A stretch of 64,000 nt of DNA from Candidatus Acidiferrum sp. (GCA_035317605.1 DATHGT010000133.1:5452-69451); one strand, 5' to 3'; shown: positions 46,345-56,949, numbered from the stretch's first letter. The notes: generated from the letters alone by a model not told the origin. Made by a program: numbers and translations.

Positions 46345-47103
46345 TCAGAACGAATCACCCACGATGCTCCGGACCGGAATGCCCGCCTCGTGCAGCGCGG
46401 CCTTGGCGCCCGCCGGCGTCTGCTCCGTGAAGTGGAACATGGCGCTCGCCGCCACCGCGGAGGCCCCGCCCTGTTTCACCACCTCGACCATGTGCTGGTA
46501 GTTCCCCGCGCCTCCCGACGCAATCACCGGGAGCGACACCGCCTTGCTGACCTGCCGCGTGCACTCGATGTCGTACCCGAGGAACGTGCCGTCGCGGTCG
46601 ATGCTGGTCAGCAGGACTTCGCCCGCGCCGAGCCGCTCGGCCTGGACCGCGAAGTCGACGGGGTCGAGCCCGGTGGGCCGGCTGCCCGAATGGGTGAAGA
46701 CTTCGCAGCGCCCGTCCGGGTGTCGCGTGAAGTCGATGGACACCACGACGCACTGCGACCCGAAGCGATCGGCAATCCGGCTGATGAGGGGGGGATCGCT
46801 CACCGCCCCCGAGTTGATGGAGACCTTGTCGGCGCCGACGCGCAGCATTCGACCGGCCTGCTCCAGCGTCGTGATGCCTCCCCCGACCGTCATCGGCATG
46901 AAACAATCGTCGGCCAGGTCGTCGACGAGGTCGTAGTCGGGCGCGCGGCCGTTGATCGAGGCCGCGATGTCGAAGAAGACCAACTCGTCGACTTCCCGCA
47001 GGTTGTAGACCTTGATCTGTTGCATGGCGCTTCCCGTCCGGCGCCAGCTGTGAAACCGTTCGCCCTTCACCAGGCCGAATTCCTTGTGGAGCAGGGTCGG
47101 CAT
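46345..47103 (-). CDS. imidazole-glycerol-phosphate synthase cyclase subunit HisF homolog (WbuZ-type, glycan amidotransfer)
   Basis: The real start ATG 47103 (MPTLLHKEFGLVKGERF...) gives a 252-aa HisF-like TIM barrel (ELVFFDIAAS, SIDRDGT, ASGGAG). It sits in a glycan locus next to HisH-like and WbuX-like genes, not in a his operon. Confidence 0.85.
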   Translation of the reverse strand: MPTLLHKEFGLVKGERFHSWRRTGSAMQQIKVYNLREVDELVFFDIAASINGRAPDYDLVDDLADDCFMPMTVGGGITTLEQAGRMLRVGADKVSINSGAVSDPPLISRIADRFGSQCVVVSIDFTRHPDGRCEVFTHSGSRPTGLDPVDFAVQAERLGAGEVLLTSIDRDGTFLGYDIECTRQVSKAVSLPVIASGGAGNYQHMVEVVKQGGASAVAASAMFHFTEQTPAGAKAALHEAGIPVRSIVGDSF

Positions 47104-47132
47104 CACGCGGACCTTGAGCAGGGTCGCCTCCC

Positions 47133-47747
47133 TCAGAGCTTCAGGAAATTCTTCAGCACGCGAAACCCGAGCCGCTGACTCTTCTCCGGATGGAACTGGG
47201 TCCCGAAGACACGCCCGTGACCGATGACGGAAATGAAGCCGCCCGCGTAGGGCGTGATGGCCCTGACGTAGGCCGGCGCGCAGACCACGTGGAAGCTGTG
47301 CACGAAATAGAAGTCGCTCCCCGGCTCGATGCCCTCCAGCACGGGGCACTCGTCCTGGAGCCGGAGCTCGTTCCAGCCCATGTGGGGGATGCGCTCCAGC
47401 CCGTTCATCGACTGCAGGCGACGCACCTCGCCCGGGATGAGATCCAGGCCCGGGGTCTCCGCGCCTTCGAAGCCCTTGCTCACCAGGAGCTGCATGCCGA
47501 GACAGATGCCCAGGAGCGGAATCCCCGCGGACTCGACCTGCTCGCGGATCGCGACATCGAACCCGGCCCGGCGCAGGTTGGCCATGGCCTCGGGAAAGGC
47601 GCCGACCCCCGGCAGAATCATGTGGGTGGCGTCCCGAAGATCTCGTGGATCGTCAGTCACCCGGGGATGACCGCCGCACTCCTCCACCGCCCTCGCCACG
47701 GAGTCGAGATTGCACAGCCCGTAGTCGATGATCGTGACCACGCTCAT
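47133..47747 (-). CDS. class I glutamine amidotransferase HisH homolog (WbuY-type)
   Basis: The real start ATG 47747 (MSVVTIIDYGLCNL...). Catalytic Cys in GICLGMQLL and the His/Glu near the C-terminus (FHPEKS). Confidence 0.8.
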   Translation of the reverse strand: MSVVTIIDYGLCNLDSVARAVEECGGHPRVTDDPRDLRDATHMILPGVGAFPEAMANLRRAGFDVAIREQVESAGIPLLGICLGMQLLVSKGFEGAETPGLDLIPGEVRRLQSMNGLERIPHMGWNELRLQDECPVLEGIEPGSDFYFVHSFHVVCAPAYVRAITPYAGGFISVIGHGRVFGTQFHPEKSQRLGFRVLKNFLKL

Positions 47748-54794: not shown

Positions 54795-55948
54795 GCGCTT
54801 CGCGCTTCCAGGACCCGTCGAACGGTGTCCACCACGCGGTCGACGTCGGCATCGTTCAACTCGGGAAACATCGGGAGCGAGAGGATGCTCGCGTACGCGG
54901 CCTCCGCGACCGGGCATTGCCCCGGGGACGTCCCGAAGCGCTTCTGATAGAAGGGATGCAGGTGCACGGGAATGTAGTGGACGTTGACGCCGAGGCCCTC
55001 CGCCCGCAAGGCCGCGAACACGTCCGCCCGATCGGTACGCAGTCGCTGCAGACGGAGGCGCACGACGTAAAGGTGGTAGGCATGCCCAGCCGCGGGGCGG
55101 ACGGCGAGGGGGGCCAGCCAGGGCATCCCTTGGAAGGCCGCGTCGTACCGGCGGGCCAGCTGCCGCCGGCGCGCGACCCAACCCTCCAGCTTGCGGAGCT
55201 GGCTGATCCCCAGGGCGCACTGCAGGTCGGTCAAGCGGTAGTTGAATCCCAGGTCCACCATCTCGTAGAACCAGGATCCCGCGGCCTCCCGCTGTCGATG
55301 ATCGCTGGTGATGCCGTGATTGCGGAAGATCCGCATCCGCCGCGCCCGCTCCGCGTCGTTGGTGGTGATCATCCCGCCTTCGCCGGTCGTGATGTGCTTG
55401 ACGGGATGAAAGCTGAAGGTCGACAGGTCGGCGAGCGTCCCCACGGGGACGCCCGACAGGTCCCCGCCGAGCGCGTGGCAGGCGTCGGCGATCAGCACGA
55501 GCCCGTGCGCGACGGCCAACTCCCGGAGCTTCACGTAGTCGCAGGGCTGACCGGCGTAGTCCACCGCCACGATGGCTTTCGTCCGTGCCGAGAGCCGCGA
55601 CTCCACCGAGGCGGGATCCACCAGCAAGGTGTCCGGGTCGACGTCGGCGAACACCGGCGTGCCGCCCTCGTAGACGACGCAGTTCGCGCTCGCCGCGAAG
55701 GTGAGCGCGGGCACGATCACCTCGTCGCCTGCCCCGATCCCGATCGCATGGACGGCCGCGTGCAGTGCCGCGGTCCCGTTGCTGACCGCCACCGCCTCCG
55801 TCGCTCCCACGAAATCCGCGAAGGCCCGCTCGAACTGTCCCACCAGCGGCCCCGTGGTCAGGTATTCGGAGCGCAGAACGCGGACGACGGCCTCGATGTC
55901 GTCGTCGCCGAGCCACTGCCTGCCGTACGGGAGGTGCCGGTTGGTCAC
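54791..55948 (-). CDS. pseC: DegT/DnrJ/EryC1/StrS-family PLP aminotransferase (PseC-like UDP-4-keto-6-deoxy-HexNAc transaminase)
   Basis: GTG start 55948..55946 in a GTGA overlap. The N-terminus LPYGRQWLGDDDIEAV is PseC-like. The PLP-Lys region is FSFHPVKHITTGEGG. Confidence 0.85.
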   Translation of the reverse strand: MTNRHLPYGRQWLGDDDIEAVVRVLRSEYLTTGPLVGQFERAFADFVGATEAVAVSNGTAALHAAVHAIGIGAGDEVIVPALTFAASANCVVYEGGTPVFADVDPDTLLVDPASVESRLSARTKAIVAVDYAGQPCDYVKLRELAVAHGLVLIADACHALGGDLSGVPVGTLADLSTFSFHPVKHITTGEGGMITTNDAERARRMRIFRNHGITSDHRQREAAGSWFYEMVDLGFNYRLTDLQCALGISQLRKLEGWVARRRQLARRYDAAFQGMPWLAPLAVRPAAGHAYHLYVVRLRLQRLRTDRADVFAALRAEGLGVNVHYIPVHLHPFYQKRFGTSPGQCPVAEAAYASILSLPMFPELNDADVDRVVDTVRRVLEARSA

Positions 55949-56949
55949 GGATCTCGAGAGAGTGGACTCGCGTGGAGCTTGGAGACCATCTCGGCGAGCT
56001 CCTCCCGCGAGAGCCAGCGATCGTTCAGATCCGAGGAATAGCGGAAGCCTTCCGGGCACGGTTTCGCGTGTTCGTAGTGGTTCGAGTCGAACCAGTCGAA
56101 CTCGGGCCGGATCACGAACCGGTCCGGGAGTTCGGCCGTGTGATGCGCGTCGTCCTCGGGAACCATGACCTCGTGGAGCTTCTCGCCGGGTCGAATACCG
56201 ATGACTTCCGTGCGGCACTCCGGCGCCAGGGCCGCCGCCAGATCCATGATGTTCATCGACGGGATCTTGGGCACGAAGATCTCACCGCCGGTCATCCGAT
56301 CGAGGCAGTCGATCACGAACTCAACGCCCTGCGGCAGGGTCAGCCAGAATCTCGTCATGCGGGGGTCGGTGATCGGAAGGACACCCGTCTTTCGACGCCC
56401 CAGGAAAAACGGGATGACGCTGCCCCGGCTGCCCACCACGTTTCCGTACCGCACCACGGAGAAGCGCGTGTTTCGGTGTCCCGCGTAGACGTTCCCGGCC
56501 ACGAACAGCTTGTCGGAGCAGAGCTTGGTCGCCCCGTAGAGATTGATGGGGTTGGCGGCCTTGTCCGTGGAGAGGGCGACCACGCGCTCCACGCCCATGT
56601 CAATCGCCTCGTTGATGACGTTTTCCGCGCCGACGACGTTGGTCTTGACGGCCTCGAACGGGTTGTATTCGGCCGCGGGGACCTGCTTGAGGGCGGCCGT
56701 GTGGATGACGACGTCGACGCCCTGAAAGGCTCGGTGGAGGCGATCACGATCGCGGACGTCTCCGATGAAGTACCGCAGCGCGGGAAACCGACTCTCCGGG
56801 AACTCCTGCCTCATCTCGAATTGCTTGAGCTCGTCCCGGCTGAAGACGATGACTTTCCGGGGCTGATAGCGGGTCAGGACCGTCCGGACGAAGGAACGCC
56901 CGAATGAACCCGTCCCCCCCGTGATCAACACGACCTTGTCGTCGATCAT
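55945..56949 (-). CDS. pseB: UDP-N-acetylglucosamine 4,6-dehydratase (inverting), PseB/FlaA1-like (Polysacc_synt_2)
   Basis: 334 aa. KVVLITGGTGSFG, the catalytic YGATKLCSDKLF and the C-terminal extension are typical of PseB/CapD short forms. It is the first gene of the long minus-strand array. Confidence 0.85.
   Translation of the reverse strand: MIDDKVVLITGGTGSFGRSFVRTVLTRYQPRKVIVFSRDELKQFEMRQEFPESRFPALRYFIGDVRDRDRLHRAFQGVDVVIHTAALKQVPAAEYNPFEAVKTNVVGAENVINEAIDMGVERVVALSTDKAANPINLYGATKLCSDKLFVAGNVYAGHRNTRFSVVRYGNVVGSRGSVIPFFLGRRKTGVLPITDPRMTRFWLTLPQGVEFVIDCLDRMTGGEIFVPKIPSMNIMDLAAALAPECRTEVIGIRPGEKLHEVMVPEDDAHHTAELPDRFVIRPEFDWFDSNHYEHAKPCPEGFRYSSDLNDRWLSREELAEMVSKLHASPLSRDP

What the first reader, a model, noticed from the sequence alone, without database searches (positions are those of the whole stretch)
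46345..56949. Complete pseudaminic-acid-type nonulosonic acid pathway with acetamidino and methyl tailoring, embedded in a 35-kb co-directional array
Reading 5' to 3' on the minus strand, the array opens with PseB-like 4,6-dehydratase, PseC-like DegT aminotransferase, PseG-like MurG-fold hydrolase, NeuB/PseI-like synthase and PseH-like GNAT. These are followed by a cytidylyltransferase (fused to an aldo/keto reductase), an SDR, a methyltransferase, and a WbuX/PseA-type PP-loop amidotransferase with HisH/HisF homologs. That combination is the textbook route to CMP-Pse5Ac7Ac, followed by 7-acetamidino (Am) formation. The adjacent methyltransferase suggests N-methyl-acetimidoyl decoration, as described for Campylobacter flagellin sugars. 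Here the context is not flagellar. The genes sit among GTs, a Wzx and a Wzy-like protein, and a second NeuA-like cytidylyltransferase. This points to a Pse-derivative being built into a surface polysaccharide, not attached to flagellin. A Pse pathway this heavily decorated inside a polysaccharide locus of a high-GC lineage is not commonly described.
Basis: partly seen in the sequence, partly recalled or inferred. Interest (0 to 1): 0.65.

Follow-up and report, generated by a model that had tools for sequence, protein, structure and literature searches.

The report
Pseudaminic-type sugar operon with likely 8-epimerase
An uncultured soil acidobacterium carries, inside a large surface-polysaccharide gene cluster, an operon for a bacterial sialic-acid-like sugar of the pseudaminic type; every part resembles known enzymes, so it is a new example and not a new kind of system, but it probably makes the recently discovered 8-epimer and uses an unusual synthase.

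Summary
They lie in a 35-kb co-directional array inside a non-flagellar Wzx/Wzy-type polysaccharide locus. The source is a 'Candidatus Acidoferrum sp.' MAG (Acidobacteriota).

- PseB, PseC and PseG pass NCBI's equivalog cut-offs, and PseB has the Tyr-type TDK...Y...K motif.
- The synthase is not a PseI. It scores below both the PseI and NeuB cut-offs, joins the canonical PseI clade in 0 of 500 bootstraps, and sits in a third, SpsE-like clade.
- In more than 20 MAG loci, however, this clade sits next to Tyr-type PseB, PseC and PseG, and the window has no NeuC.
- The cytidylyltransferase-AKR fusion plus the adjacent SDR has the same architecture and order as EpaA/EpaB, which convert Pse5Ac7Ac to 8-epi-Pse5Ac7Ac in Acinetobacter baumannii. 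The stand-alone second cytidylyltransferase is the better PseF candidate.
- WbuX/HisH/HisF probably amidinate the nonulosonate, but a WlbA-like gene leaves a uronic-acid target open.
- N-methyl-acetimidoyl decoration is documented for legionaminic acid, including in the Legionella O-antigen, so it is not new in a polysaccharide.

Verdict: new member of a known kind, of moderate interest.

The parts
55945..56949 (-). PseB-type UDP-GlcNAc 4,6-dehydratase (inverting), 334 aa. First gene of the operon.
   Evidence: TIGR03589 522.5 bits, cut-off 407.75. PF02719 338 bits. Motif TDKAANPINLYGATK, the Tyr-type. 58% identical to the homologue in the S. meliloti Rm41 rkp-3 region.
54791..55948 (-). PseC-type DegT aminotransferase, 385 aa.
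   Evidence: TIGR03588 468.6 bits, cut-off 423.5; the LegC model gives only 236.7 against a cut-off of 420. Overlaps the pseB stop by 4 bp. Gene call on the source contig.
53805..54761 (-). PseG-type GT-B (MurG-fold) UDP-sugar hydrolase, 318 aa.
   Evidence: TIGR03590 161.2 bits, cut-off 153.55; this is the only NCBIfam hit. N-terminal GFGHVRR motif. 32% identical to the PGAP-named PseG of Mesorhizobium.
52762..53808 (-). NeuB-family nonulosonate synthase of the SpsE-like clade, 348 aa. It is not a canonical PseI.
   Evidence: NeuB_NnaB 331.2 (cut-off 399.65) and PseI 282.9 (cut-off 340.25). PDB: SpsE 1VLI 286 bits, CjPseI 8H2C 174, NmNeuB 136. Tree: 0 of 500 bootstraps with the PseI clade. 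Motif AEAGSNH/KFQTF, against AE[ML]S[AG]NH/K[IL]QTY in PseI.
52229..52762 (-). GNAT N-acetyltransferase, 177 aa. Candidate for the PseH role.
   Evidence: TIGR03585 PseH 77.9 bits, cut-off 93.1. PF13302 90.5 bits. Many homologues of the synthase are fused to this GNAT.
50589..52232 (-). EpaA-like fusion, 547 aa: SpsF-type cytidylyltransferase (residues 9-172) plus aldo/keto reductase (249-528).
   Evidence: PF02348 and PF00248. Same architecture and size as A. baumannii EpaA: 542 aa, CTP_transf_3 at 5-192 and Aldo_ket_red at 239-525 (PMC12053666). Invariant or near-invariant D290/Y295/K319/H360 and the RLPGK motif. 100% identical to a 'Candidatus Acidoferrum sp.' protein.
49801..50592 (-). EpaB-like classical SDR, 263 aa.
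   Evidence: PF13561 145 bits. Overlaps the fusion gene by 4 bp. [quoted passage not shown] Best PDB hit is 6UH2, the search model used to solve ElaC. 47% identical to the SDR next to the Marinovum CT-AKR fusion and 41% to the Maritalea one.
49029..49772 (-). Class I SAM-dependent methyltransferase, 247 aa. Substrate unknown.
   Evidence: PF13847 66 bits. Conserved in position in relative L001 at 83% identity.
47758..48960 (-). WbuX/PseA-family PP-loop N-acetyl-sugar amidotransferase, 400 aa.
   Evidence: TIGR03573 316.2 bits, cut-off 203.2. SGGKDS PP-loop and two CxxC pairs.
47133..47747 (-). HisH-type glutaminase subunit (WbuY role), 204 aa.
   Evidence: TIGR01855 219 bits, cut-off 105.4. 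GICLG nucleophile motif and HPE.
46345..47112 (-). HisF-type cyclase-fold subunit (WbuZ/AglZ-like), about 255 aa. The start codon is uncertain.
   Evidence: TIGR03572 WbuZ 276.7 bits (cut-off 299.7). AglZ_HisF2 263. hisF 252.
44359..46287 (-). 642-aa GT-B-fold protein, weakly LIC12162-like. Candidate transferase; acceptor and donor unknown.
41977..43539 (-). Wzx-like multi-spanning membrane protein.
   Evidence: At least 9 hydrophobic segments. No Pfam or NCBIfam hit, so the assignment rests on topology and context only.
39464..40210 (-). Second cytidylyltransferase, NeuA/PseF-like, 248 aa. Best candidate for the CMP-nonulosonate synthetase.
   Evidence: TIGR03584 PseF 72 bits, cut-off 205.7. 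PDB: NeuA 9FTB and 6IFD, 53 bits each. The PGAP-named PseF of Mesorhizobium hits this gene and not the fusion. A 68%-identical homologue lies beside an SpsE-like synthase in L026.
38361..39584 (-). Gfo/Idh/MocA oxidoreductase, WlbA/WbpB-like. Probably belongs to a second sugar pathway (3-oxidation of a UDP-N-acetyl-hexuronic acid).
   Evidence: PDB 3Q2K 254.8 bits and 3Q2I 242 bits. That these two entries are WlbA is from my own knowledge. No hit when queried with the Ela-like GFO of Halorussus.
21671..37410 (-). Rest of the co-directional array: HisC-like aminotransferase, epimerases, methyltransferase, HAD, TIGR04326-like 661-aa protein, heparinase II/III-like protein, two AsnB-like amidotransferases, GT2, Wzy-like protein, two GT4.

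Best explanation
The span is one operon of a Wzx/Wzy-type exopolysaccharide or O-antigen locus in an acidobacterium. It makes a CMP-activated, decorated 5,7-diamino-3,5,7,9-tetradeoxynon-2-ulosonic acid by a pseudaminic-type route.

Inferred order of steps:
1. PseB dehydrates UDP-GlcNAc with inversion at C5.
2. PseC aminates C4.
3. The GNAT N-acetylates the new amine.
4. PseG hydrolyses off UDP, giving 2,4-diacetamido-2,4,6-trideoxy-L-altrose.
5. An SpsE-clade NeuB homologue, not a canonical PseI, condenses this sugar with PEP.
6. The stand-alone NeuA/PseF-like cytidylyltransferase activates the product.
7. The EpaB-like SDR and the aldo/keto reductase half of the EpaA-like fusion epimerise a hydroxyl carbon by oxidation and re-reduction, most likely C8. 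The fused cytidylyltransferase half supplies or restores the CMP ester. The result would be an 8-epi-pseudaminic acid derivative.
8. WbuX with HisH/HisF turns one N-acetyl group into an acetamidino group.
9. The adjacent methyltransferase may methylate the product.
10. A GT-B protein and the downstream glycosyltransferases build the sugar into a lipid-linked repeat unit, which is flipped by the Wzx-like protein and polymerised by the Wzy-like protein.

Shown here: gene presence, family assignments, operon packing and conserved synteny. Inferred: all chemistry, the stereochemistry, the order of the late steps and the acceptor.
For: - PseB, PseC and PseG score above their equivalog cut-offs. PseB has the Tyr-type TDK-x7-Y-x3-K motif and PseG has GFGHVRR.
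- Six-frame tblastn with two NeuC references and a sugar-phosphate nucleotidyltransferase reference finds nothing in the window.
- In 47 genome loci holding SpsE-like synthases, those with enough flank carry Tyr-type PseB (51-69% identical), PseC and mostly PseG beside the synthase.
- The CT-AKR fusion (547 aa) followed by an overlapping SDR (263 aa) matches EpaA (542 aa, same two Pfam domains at the same positions) and EpaB (262 aa, adh_short_C2). These were shown by NMR to convert Pse5Ac7Ac to 8ePse5Ac7Ac (PMC12053666).
- The same SDR + CT-AKR pair (41-47% identical) lies in NulO clusters on Marinovum and Maritalea plasmids. In Marinovum it accompanies a canonical PseI (AEMSGNH motif) and a PseG-like gene.
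- A. baumannii 8ePse producers likewise carry both a PseF-type cytidylyltransferase (in psaA-F) and EpaA, which explains the two cytidylyltransferases here.
- WbuX is above cut-off and has a PP-loop; HisH is above cut-off. WbuX/HisH/HisF lie within 10 kb of SpsE-like synthases in L001, L003, L005, L008, L020, L022, L035, L036 and L046, none of which has a close WlbA homologue.
- Overlapping stop and start codons link the genes.
- The polysaccharide context is shown.
Against: - The synthase fails the PseI cut-off and never groups with canonical PseI.
- Its nearest characterised relative, B. subtilis SpsE, belongs to a pathway reported to make legionaminic acid (PMC7439481).
- The PseH, PseF and WbuZ matches are below cut-off.
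- No A. baumannii EpaA or EpaB sequence was available, so homology to them rests on architecture, size, order and context, not on an alignment.
- EpaAB-like pairs could epimerise another position or act on another nonulosonate.
- The amidotransferase could instead serve a 2,3-diamino-uronic acid, since a WlbA-like gene is present.
- The Wzx, Wzy-like and chain-length proteins have no HMM support.
- Nothing is known about expression. The organism is an uncultured MAG.
Confidence: 0.6

Rival explanations
1. One reading: a textbook CMP-Pse5Ac7Ac pathway in which the NeuB homologue acts as PseI and the fused cytidylyltransferase as PseF. This is followed by 7-acetamidino formation and N-methylation. 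The AKR and SDR are incidental tailoring enzymes, and no epimerisation takes place.
For: PseB, PseC and PseG are above cut-off. WbuX/HisH/HisF and a methyltransferase are present. An SpsF-like cytidylyltransferase follows a canonical pseI in the Azospirillum brasilense Sp7 flagellin cluster and is 44% identical to the cytidylyltransferase half of the fusion. SpsF-type cytidylyltransferases can therefore plausibly serve as CMP-Pse synthetases.
Against: The CT-AKR + SDR pair is a conserved unit with the architecture of the proven 8-epimerisation pair EpaA/EpaB. A separate PseF-like cytidylyltransferase exists in the same array. The synthase is outside the PseI clade. N-methyl-acetimidoyl decoration is documented for Leg, not Pse (PMC3766260).
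Confidence: 0.2
2. A legionaminic-type or other non-Pse isomer pathway of the B. subtilis Sps kind. Here PseG-like and SpsE-like enzymes would work on UDP-linked gluco-configured intermediates, and the product would be Leg or a Leg epimer.
For: The synthase clusters with B. subtilis SpsE and a Halorussus homologue (71% bootstrap) and next to NeuC-linked NeuB/LegI-type enzymes. NeuB_NnaB HMM scores above the PseI HMM. JGI names close relatives 'N,N'-diacetyllegionaminate synthase'. The sps pathway, which includes the PseG-like SpsG, is reported to give Leg (PMC7439481).
Against: B. subtilis SpsM has a Met-type triad; PglF restores Leg production in the spsM mutant, whereas PseB does not or only partly does. 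The Halorussus relative also has a Met-type dehydratase. The window enzyme and those of more than 20 related MAG loci are Tyr-type and score as PseB. PseC scores 468.6 on the PseC model against 236.7 on the LegC model. There is no NeuC/LegG and no PtmE/LegX-like nucleotidyltransferase in the window. The B. subtilis assignment rests on HPLC co-elution with a standard, not on NMR.
Confidence: 0.15
3. The WbuX/HisH/HisF amidotransferase, and possibly the methyltransferase, do not act on the nonulosonate. They would instead act on a 2,3-diacetamido-2,3-dideoxy-hexuronic acid made elsewhere in the locus, as WbpG/HisH2/HisF2 do for ManNAc3NAmA in Pseudomonas aeruginosa O5 and AglXYZ do in Methanococcus. 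This rival concerns only the late steps and is compatible with the best explanation for the rest.
For: A WlbA/WbpB-like Gfo/Idh/MocA enzyme (3Q2K, 254.8 bits) and an NDP-sugar 6-dehydrogenase (TIGR03026, 442.6 bits) are present. HisF scores nearly as well on the AglZ/HisF2 model (263 bits) as on WbuZ (277 bits). The P. aeruginosa and Methanococcus precedents are from my own knowledge.
Against: The three genes are packed into the nonulosonate operon. They stay linked to the synthase in relative L001 (89-92% identical) and in eight other MAG loci that lack a close WlbA homologue. No WbpE-type DegT or WbpD-type acetyltransferase was found next to the WlbA-like gene.
Confidence: 0.25

Closest known systems
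Acinetobacter baumannii psaA-F plus prophage epaA-epaB (8-epi-Pse5Ac7Ac in K58/K135 capsules; PMC12053666)
   Same: Pse-type early genes. A separate PseF-type cytidylyltransferase. A CTP_transf_3-Aldo_ket_red fusion of about 545 aa next to a classical SDR of about 262 aa. The sugar ends up in a Wzx/Wzy-made surface polysaccharide.
   Different: Here the pair is embedded in the chromosomal operon between the acetyltransferase and the tailoring genes, not carried on a prophage. The synthase is SpsE-like, not PsaF/PseI-like. Amidotransferase and methyltransferase genes are added. Sequence identity to EpaA/EpaB could not be measured.
Campylobacter jejuni / Helicobacter pylori CMP-Pse pathway (PseB, C, H, G, I, F) with PseA (Pse5Ac7Am)
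   Same: PseB, PseC and PseG are equivalog-level matches. A GNAT stands in the PseH position. A WbuX/PseA-family PP-loop amidotransferase is present.
   Different: The synthase is not in the PseI clade. The cytidylyltransferases are far below the PseF cut-off. HisH/HisF partners are present. The context is a polysaccharide, not flagellin. There is an extra redox pair.
Bacillus subtilis SpsM/C/D/G/E/F spore-crust pathway (reported product legionaminic acid; PMC7439481)
   Same: The synthase is closest to SpsE (47% identity, 286 bits). Both have a PseG-like hydrolase. The cytidylyltransferase domain is of the SpsF type. Intermediates are UDP-linked.
   Different: SpsM has a Met-type triad; PglF restores Leg production in the spsM mutant, whereas PseB does not or only partly does. 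The window enzyme has a Tyr-type triad and scores as PseB. B. subtilis has no AKR fusion and no amidotransferase.
Legionella pneumophila serogroup 1 O-antigen and C. jejuni PtmG/PtmH (Leg5Am7Ac, Leg5AmNMe7Ac; PMC3766260)
   Same: A WbuX-family amidotransferase together with a methyltransferase decorates a CMP-nonulosonate. In Legionella the product is polymerised into a surface polysaccharide.
   Different: Those systems make legionaminic acid through NeuC/LegG. Homology of the window methyltransferase to PtmH/ORF8 was not tested.
ElaABC of A. baumannii KL49 (CMP-Leg5,7Ac2 C8 epimerisation; PMC13656337)
   Same: The logic is the same: a dedicated cytidylyltransferase plus an oxidising and a reducing enzyme that invert C8. 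The window SDR's best PDB relative (6UH2) is the model used to solve ElaC.
   Different: ElaA is a Gfo/Idh/MocA enzyme, not an AKR, and ElaABC has no fusion. The window's Gfo/Idh/MocA protein is WlbA-like and lies 10 kb away.

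Membership tests
CMP-pseudaminic acid pathway (PseB/C/H/G/I/F) | Inverting UDP-GlcNAc 4,6-dehydratase PseB | tested here: met
   TIGR03589 522.5 bits, cut-off 407.75. Motif TDKAANPINLYGATK, Tyr-type.
CMP-pseudaminic acid pathway (PseB/C/H/G/I/F) | PseC aminotransferase | tested here: met
   TIGR03588 468.6 bits, cut-off 423.5.
CMP-pseudaminic acid pathway (PseB/C/H/G/I/F) | PseH N-acetyltransferase | tested here: inconclusive
   The GNAT scores 77.9 on TIGR03585, below the cut-off of 93.1, but PseH is the best-scoring family.
CMP-pseudaminic acid pathway (PseB/C/H/G/I/F) | PseG UDP-sugar hydrolase (GT-B fold, no 2-epimerisation) | tested here: met
   TIGR03590 161.2 bits, cut-off 153.55. GFGHVRR motif. 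The catalytic role of this His in PseG is from my own knowledge.
CMP-pseudaminic acid pathway (PseB/C/H/G/I/F) | PseI-clade synthase | tested here: not met
   TIGR03586 282.9 bits, cut-off 340.25. Reference PseI enzymes score 440-501. Groups with the PseI clade in 0 of 500 bootstraps. Motif AEAGSNH, not AE[ML]S[AG]NH.
CMP-pseudaminic acid pathway (PseB/C/H/G/I/F) | PseF cytidylyltransferase | tested here: inconclusive
   The stand-alone cytidylyltransferase scores 72 bits, cut-off 205.7. The fusion has no PseF hit. A reference PseF hits the stand-alone gene at 29% identity.
Legionaminic acid pathway (LegB/C/H/G/I/F, PtmE/LegX) | NeuC/LegG hydrolysing 2-epimerase | tested here: not met
   No Epimerase_2 hit among the ORFs scanned. 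tblastn with two NeuC references finds nothing in the window at E <= 1e-3.
Legionaminic acid pathway (LegB/C/H/G/I/F, PtmE/LegX) | NeuB/LegI-type synthase (TIGR03569) | tested here: not met
   331.2 bits, cut-off 399.65. NeuC-linked references score 423-454.
Legionaminic acid pathway (LegB/C/H/G/I/F, PtmE/LegX) | Retaining dehydratase and LegC aminotransferase | tested here: not met
   LegB model 59.5 bits (cut-off 475). LegC model 236.7 bits (cut-off 420). The dehydratase is Tyr-type, not Met-type.
EpaA/EpaB 8-epimerisation pair | EpaA architecture: N-terminal CTP_transf_3 plus C-terminal Aldo_ket_red in one protein of about 542 aa | tested here: met
   547 aa. PF02348 at residues 9-172 and PF00248 at 249-528. 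EpaA has them at 5-192 and 239-525.
EpaA/EpaB 8-epimerisation pair | Adjacent co-directional adh_short_C2 SDR of about 262 aa | tested here: met
   263 aa. PF13561 145 bits. 4-bp overlap with the fusion gene.
EpaA/EpaB 8-epimerisation pair | Sequence homology to A. baumannii EpaA (SBS22546.1) and EpaB (SBS22545.1) | not testable with these tools
   Neither sequence is in any searchable collection here. The phage collection gave no match. The paper's supplements hold no sequences.
EpaA/EpaB 8-epimerisation pair | Conversion of Pse to 8ePse | not testable with these tools
   Needs NMR of the glycan or an enzyme assay.
WbuX/WbuY/WbuZ N-acetyl-sugar amidotransferase | PP-loop WbuX subunit | tested here: met
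   TIGR03573 316.2 bits, cut-off 203.2. SGGKDS motif.
WbuX/WbuY/WbuZ N-acetyl-sugar amidotransferase | HisH-like glutaminase and HisF-like partner, encoded adjacently | tested here: met
   HisH 219 bits, cut-off 105.4. The HisF-like protein scores 276.7 on WbuZ, just below the cut-off of 299.7. Gaps between the genes are 10 and about 20 bp (and the revised HisF start at 47112).
Wzx/Wzy-dependent polysaccharide locus | Flippase, polymerase, chain-length regulator and initiating phosphoglycosyl transferase | tested here: inconclusive
   WecA-type PGT: PF00953 115 bits. Wzy_C protein: 52.8 bits. The Wzx-like, second Wzy-like and PCP-like proteins are supported only by hydropathy profiles and have no HMM hits. 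An ABC-2 permease is also present.

The most novel reading that the evidence does not exclude
The SpsE-like synthase clade, when paired with Tyr-type PseB, PseC and PseG and with an in-operon EpaA/EpaB-like pair, may define a widespread environmental route to 8-epi-pseudaminic acid derivatives or to a nonulosonate stereoisomer not yet described. The route would be found in Acidobacteriota, Nitrospirota, Planctomycetota, Myxococcota and other phyla, and here the sugar would also be amidinated and methylated. On this reading 8ePse, so far reported only from two A. baumannii capsule types where it is phage-conferred, would be an old and common component of soil-bacterial exopolysaccharides. The synthase clade would then be a third functional class beside PseI and LegI/NeuB.
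Probability: 0.3. Interest if true: 0.55.

Novelty: new member of a known kind. Interest (0 to 1): 0.35.

Why it matters
Nonulosonic acids shape how bacteria are recognised by phages, antibodies, lectins and neighbouring cells, and their stereochemistry decides that recognition.

If the prediction holds, three things follow:
- It would move 8-epi-pseudaminic acid from a clinical curiosity of Acinetobacter prophages to a normal component of soil-bacterial surface glycans.
- It would supply candidate enzymes for chemoenzymatic synthesis of rare nonulosonates: the CT-AKR fusion, the SDR and the three-part amidotransferase.

As it stands this is a homology-based prediction for an uncultured organism. 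It does not open or close any long-standing question.

Tried and rejected
1. Source genome: I looked for it among species-representative genomes using the synthase. The best hit was only 62% identical, from many phyla. The source was identified later from a 100% protein match named 'Candidatus Acidoferrum sp.'. That name is not in the taxonomy dump.

2. A. baumannii EpaA/EpaB sequences: I could not obtain them. The phage collection gave no match. An IMG/VR scan returned only metagenomic viral contigs in which the AKR and cytidylyltransferase are separate genes. The paper's supplements hold NMR files, not sequences.

3. B. subtilis SpsE in the Viollier glyco-profiling preprint: I tried to learn whether it behaves as PseI or LegI. 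The result is only in the figures.

4. The large NulO-synthase phylogeny paper (PMC8208679) was opened but did not address the SpsE-like clade.

5. The idea that the second cytidylyltransferase, the Gfo/Idh/MocA protein and the extended SDR form an ElaBAC-like module was rejected. The Gfo/Idh/MocA protein is strongly WlbA-like and is not hit by an Ela-like reference.

6. The 642-aa protein was modelled in the hope of recognising a sialyltransferase-like fold. It is a generic GT-B protein, nearest to UDP-GlcNAc 2-epimerases and TagF/TarL, so its role stays open. It is not a paralogue of the 661-aa TIGR04326-like protein.

7. ORFs 37370-38611 and 40207-41334, and the N-terminal parts of 33955-35400 and 40317-41942, were rejected as wrong-frame artefacts of high GC.

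8. A first bootstrap run timed out. It was redone with a faster distance routine.

Full report
**What is there.** The window has 65-72% GC and many spurious ORFs, so genes were chosen by third-position GC and by frame-specific GC3 plots. From 56949 down to 21671 the minus strand carries an unbroken co-directional array of about 35.3 kb. The span named in the finding (46345-56949) holds eleven genes, and their boundaries agree with the gene calls on the source contig: PseB-like 55945-56949, PseC-like 54791-55948, PseG-like 53805-54761, NeuB-family 52762-53808, GNAT 52229-52762, a CTP_transf_3 + aldo/keto-reductase fusion 50589-52232, an SDR 49801-50592, a methyltransferase 49029-49772, WbuX 47758-48960, HisH 47133-47747 and HisF-like 46345-47112. 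Five junctions overlap by 1-4 bp and the other five gaps are 8-68 bp, which points to a single operon. One protein is 100% identical to an NCBI entry from a MAG named 'Candidatus Acidoferrum sp.'. The host is therefore an uncultured acidobacterium, not an actinomycete.

**Family tests.** Three proteins clear the curated equivalog cut-offs of NCBIfam: PseB 522.5 against 407.75, PseC 468.6 against 423.5, PseG 161.2 against 153.55. WbuX (316.2 against 203.2) and HisH (219 against 105.4) also clear theirs. The GNAT is best matched by PseH but falls below cut-off (77.9 against 93.1). HisF is best matched by WbuZ, also just below cut-off (276.7 against 299.7). The expected sequence motifs are present: TDKAANPINLYGATK in PseB, GFGHVRR in PseG, SGGKDS and two CxxC pairs in WbuX, GICLG and HPE in HisH, YGATK in the SDR, and RLPGK and TADNP in the cytidylyltransferase domain. 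The fusion family also has an invariant or near-invariant D290/Y295/K319/H360 set, spaced like an AKR catalytic tetrad.

**The synthase is not a PseI.** It scores 331.2 on NeuB_NnaB (cut-off 399.65) and 282.9 on PseI (cut-off 340.25). Among solved structures it is closest to B. subtilis SpsE (286 bits), far ahead of C. jejuni PseI (174) and N. meningitidis NeuB (136).

I collected reference synthases from annotated plasmids. The Pse-type set was RkpQ of S. meliloti Rm41, B. toyonensis PseI, Mesorhizobium PseI with a full pse set, A. brasilense Sp7 PseI and Nonomuraea. The NeuB-type set comprised two enzymes encoded beside a NeuC and one from Azospirillum lipoferum. Canonical PseI enzymes score 440-501 on the PseI model and 260-290 on NeuB_NnaB. 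The NeuB-type enzymes do the reverse (423-454 against 265-296). SpsE, a Halorussus homologue, two metagenomic relatives and the window protein score below both cut-offs, slightly higher on NeuB_NnaB.

In a neighbour-joining tree with 500 bootstraps, the window protein and its metagenomic relatives form a clade (99%). This clade joins SpsE and Halorussus (71%) and then the NeuB/LegI-type group (64%). Canonical PseI forms its own clade (93%), and the window protein joins it in 0 of 500 replicates. Motifs agree: AEAGSNH/KFQTF here and throughout the clade, against AE[ML]S[AG]NH/K[IL]QTY in PseI.

**Why a pseudaminic-type substrate is still the best reading.** The B. subtilis pathway, reported to give legionaminic acid, starts with SpsM. 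SpsM has a Met-type triad; PglF restores Leg production in the spsM mutant, whereas PseB does not or only partly does (PMC7439481). The Halorussus relative also sits next to a Met-type dehydratase.

The window enzyme, by contrast, is Tyr-type and is 57-58% identical to the dehydratase homologues encoded beside canonical PseI synthases in S. meliloti Rm41 and Nonomuraea. That the Rm41 K-antigen contains Pse is from my own knowledge.

Of 47 genome loci with SpsE-like synthases, drawn from Nitrospirota, Planctomycetota, Acidobacteriota, Myxococcota, Chloroflexota, Elusimicrobiota and others, those with enough flanking DNA carry a Tyr-type PseB (51-69% identical), a PseC and usually a PseG next to the synthase. 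Six-frame searches of the window with two NeuC references and a sugar-phosphate nucleotidyltransferase reference find nothing. The sub-clade to which the window belongs is therefore habitually coupled to the inverting, Pse-type early steps. The simplest reading is that it is a non-orthologous Pse-type synthase. This remains an inference.

**The fusion and the SDR.** The 547-aa protein has CTP_transf_3 at residues 9-172 and Aldo_ket_red at 249-528. It is followed, with a 4-bp overlap, by a 263-aa adh_short_C2 SDR. Kenyon and co-workers showed by complementation and NMR that EpaA and EpaB convert Pse5Ac7Ac to 8-epi-Pse5Ac7Ac in A. baumannii capsules. EpaA is 542 aa with CTP_transf_3 at 5-192 and Aldo_ket_red at 239-525; EpaB is a 262-aa adh_short_C2 protein. 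Those strains also carry the ordinary psaA-F genes, including a PseF-type cytidylyltransferase (PMC12053666). The window matches this layout point for point, including a second, NeuA/PseF-like cytidylyltransferase at 39464-40210. That gene scores 72 bits on the PseF model, is hit by a reference PseF at 29% identity, and has a 68%-identical homologue beside an SpsE-like synthase in L026.

The SDR + fusion pair recurs as a unit on Marinovum and Maritalea plasmids in nonulosonate clusters (41-47% identity). In Marinovum it accompanies a canonical PseI and a PseG-like gene. The fusion family is large: 1065 proteins at E <= 1e-10, typically 45-55% identical. The SDR's best solved relative, 6UH2, is the search model that was used to solve ElaC, the reductase of the analogous C8 epimerisation of CMP-legionaminic acid (PMC13656337).

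I could not obtain the EpaA/EpaB sequences. The link therefore rests on architecture, size, gene order and context. All papers in the library that mention 8-epipseudaminic acid concern A. baumannii, apart from one general NMR review.

**Late tailoring.** WbuX/HisH/HisF is the three-part N-acetyl-sugar amidotransferase set. Its linkage to the synthase survives in the close relative L001 (89-92% identity) and in eight further MAG loci without a close WlbA homologue. This favours the nonulosonate as its substrate.

The array also encodes a strongly WlbA/WbpB-like oxidoreductase (254.8 bits to 3Q2K), and the window an NDP-sugar 6-dehydrogenase. A 2,3-diamino-uronic acid is therefore probably made as well and could be the amidino acceptor, as in P. 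aeruginosa O5 (own knowledge).

The methyltransferase has no specific family match. N-methyl-acetimidoyl groups are documented on legionaminic acid (PtmG/PtmH) and occur in the Legionella pneumophila serogroup 1 O-antigen (PMC3766260). The combination is thus neither Pse-specific nor new to polysaccharides.

**Context.** The rest of the window is a surface-glycan locus. It contains a WecA-type initiating transferase, a 1137-aa GT2-GT4-GT2 protein, GT2 and GT4 enzymes, a Wzy_C protein, multi-spanning Wzx-like and Wzy-like proteins, a two-TM coiled-coil PCP-like protein, an MBOAT/AlgX O-acetylation pair, an ABC-2 permease, two AsnB-like 'PEP-CTERM system amidotransferase'-like proteins, two PhyH dioxygenases and at least eight methyltransferases. 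No flagellar genes were seen. A 642-aa protein just after HisF models confidently (pLDDT 85) as a GT-B fold protein, but it resembles only generic GT-B enzymes. It is a candidate nonulosonate transferase and nothing more.

**Verdict.** Three readings are compared.
- Most likely (about 0.6): a Pse-type operon with an SpsE-clade synthase and an EpaAB-like module, giving an amidinated, possibly methylated 8-epi-Pse derivative for an acidobacterial exopolysaccharide or O-antigen.
- Textbook Pse5Ac7Am without epimerisation: about 0.2.
- A Leg-type or other isomer: about 0.15.

Every module has a characterised counterpart, so this is a new member of a known kind. Interest is moderate (0.35). It comes from the probable spread of 8ePse chemistry into environmental phyla and from a synthase clade that standard models misname.

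Noticed in passing
window 38361-39584 and 60380-61696: A strongly WlbA/WbpB-like Gfo/Idh/MocA oxidoreductase (PDB 3Q2K, 255 bits) and an NDP-sugar 6-dehydrogenase suggest that a second sugar, of the 2,3-diamino-hexuronic type, is made in the same locus. The neighbouring aminotransferase is HisC-like (class I/II) and not of the usual DegT type.
   Followed up: partly
L001 (JGI metagenome 3300025553 contig) compared with window 46345-55948: The close relative is a mosaic. From the synthase to HisF it is 72-92% identical in protein to the window. Its PseC and PseG are only 37-43% identical, PseB is absent, and a DegT pseudogene remnant and a truncated sugar dehydrogenase lie upstream. This implies recombination near the PseG/synthase boundary.
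   Followed up: partly
L068-L078 (IMG/VR viral contigs): Metagenomic viral contigs carry PseB, PseC and NeuB homologues together with an aldo/keto reductase and an SpsF-like cytidylyltransferase as separate adjacent genes. This is an unfused version of the EpaA arrangement on phage-like DNA.
   Followed up: partly
window 19829-21616: The initiating transferase is an unusual fusion. A WecA/MraY-type domain (PF00953) is followed by a C-terminal half that resembles the N-terminal membrane/CoA_binding_3 part of WbaP/WcaJ-type phosphoglycosyl transferases, without their catalytic domain.
   Followed up: no
window 13890-17303: A single 1137-aa protein combines GT2, GT4 and GT2 glycosyltransferase domains.
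   Followed up: no
window 6268-9118: An MBOAT (AlgI-like) gene and an AlgX-like SGNH gene lie side by side. They form a probable polysaccharide O-acetylation pair.
   Followed up: no
window 11693-13846 and 17321-19396: An S8 subtilase with FG-GAP repeats and an FG-GAP/Big_7 protein are embedded in the glycan locus. Their role is unknown.
   Followed up: no
window 22833-24749, 28227-30074 and 30078-32066: Two AsnB-like amidotransferases score best or second-best on the 'XrtA/PEP-CTERM system amidotransferase' model. A protein with a heparinase II/III C-terminal domain sits among the glycosyltransferases.
   Followed up: no
window 438-1253, 3466-4284, 9155-10399, 34596-35225, 40317-41117, 41123-41890, 49029-49772, 57066-57947: At least eight SAM-dependent methyltransferase genes lie within 64 kb, which suggests a heavily methylated glycan. 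Three of them are hidden inside longer wrong-frame ORFs.
   Followed up: partly
window 44359-46287: The 642-aa protein after HisF has only 20 detectable homologues, several of which carry a Pfam family (PF27859) that is missing from the local Pfam copy. It models as a GT-B fold protein with a large helical insertion.
   Followed up: yes
window 43533-44378 and 10434-11678: Two PhyH-family Fe(II)/2-oxoglutarate dioxygenase genes lie in the locus. One sits between the GT-B protein and the Wzx-like gene. A PhyH gene also appears in the Rhodobacteraceae SC52 NulO cluster (L054).
   Followed up: no
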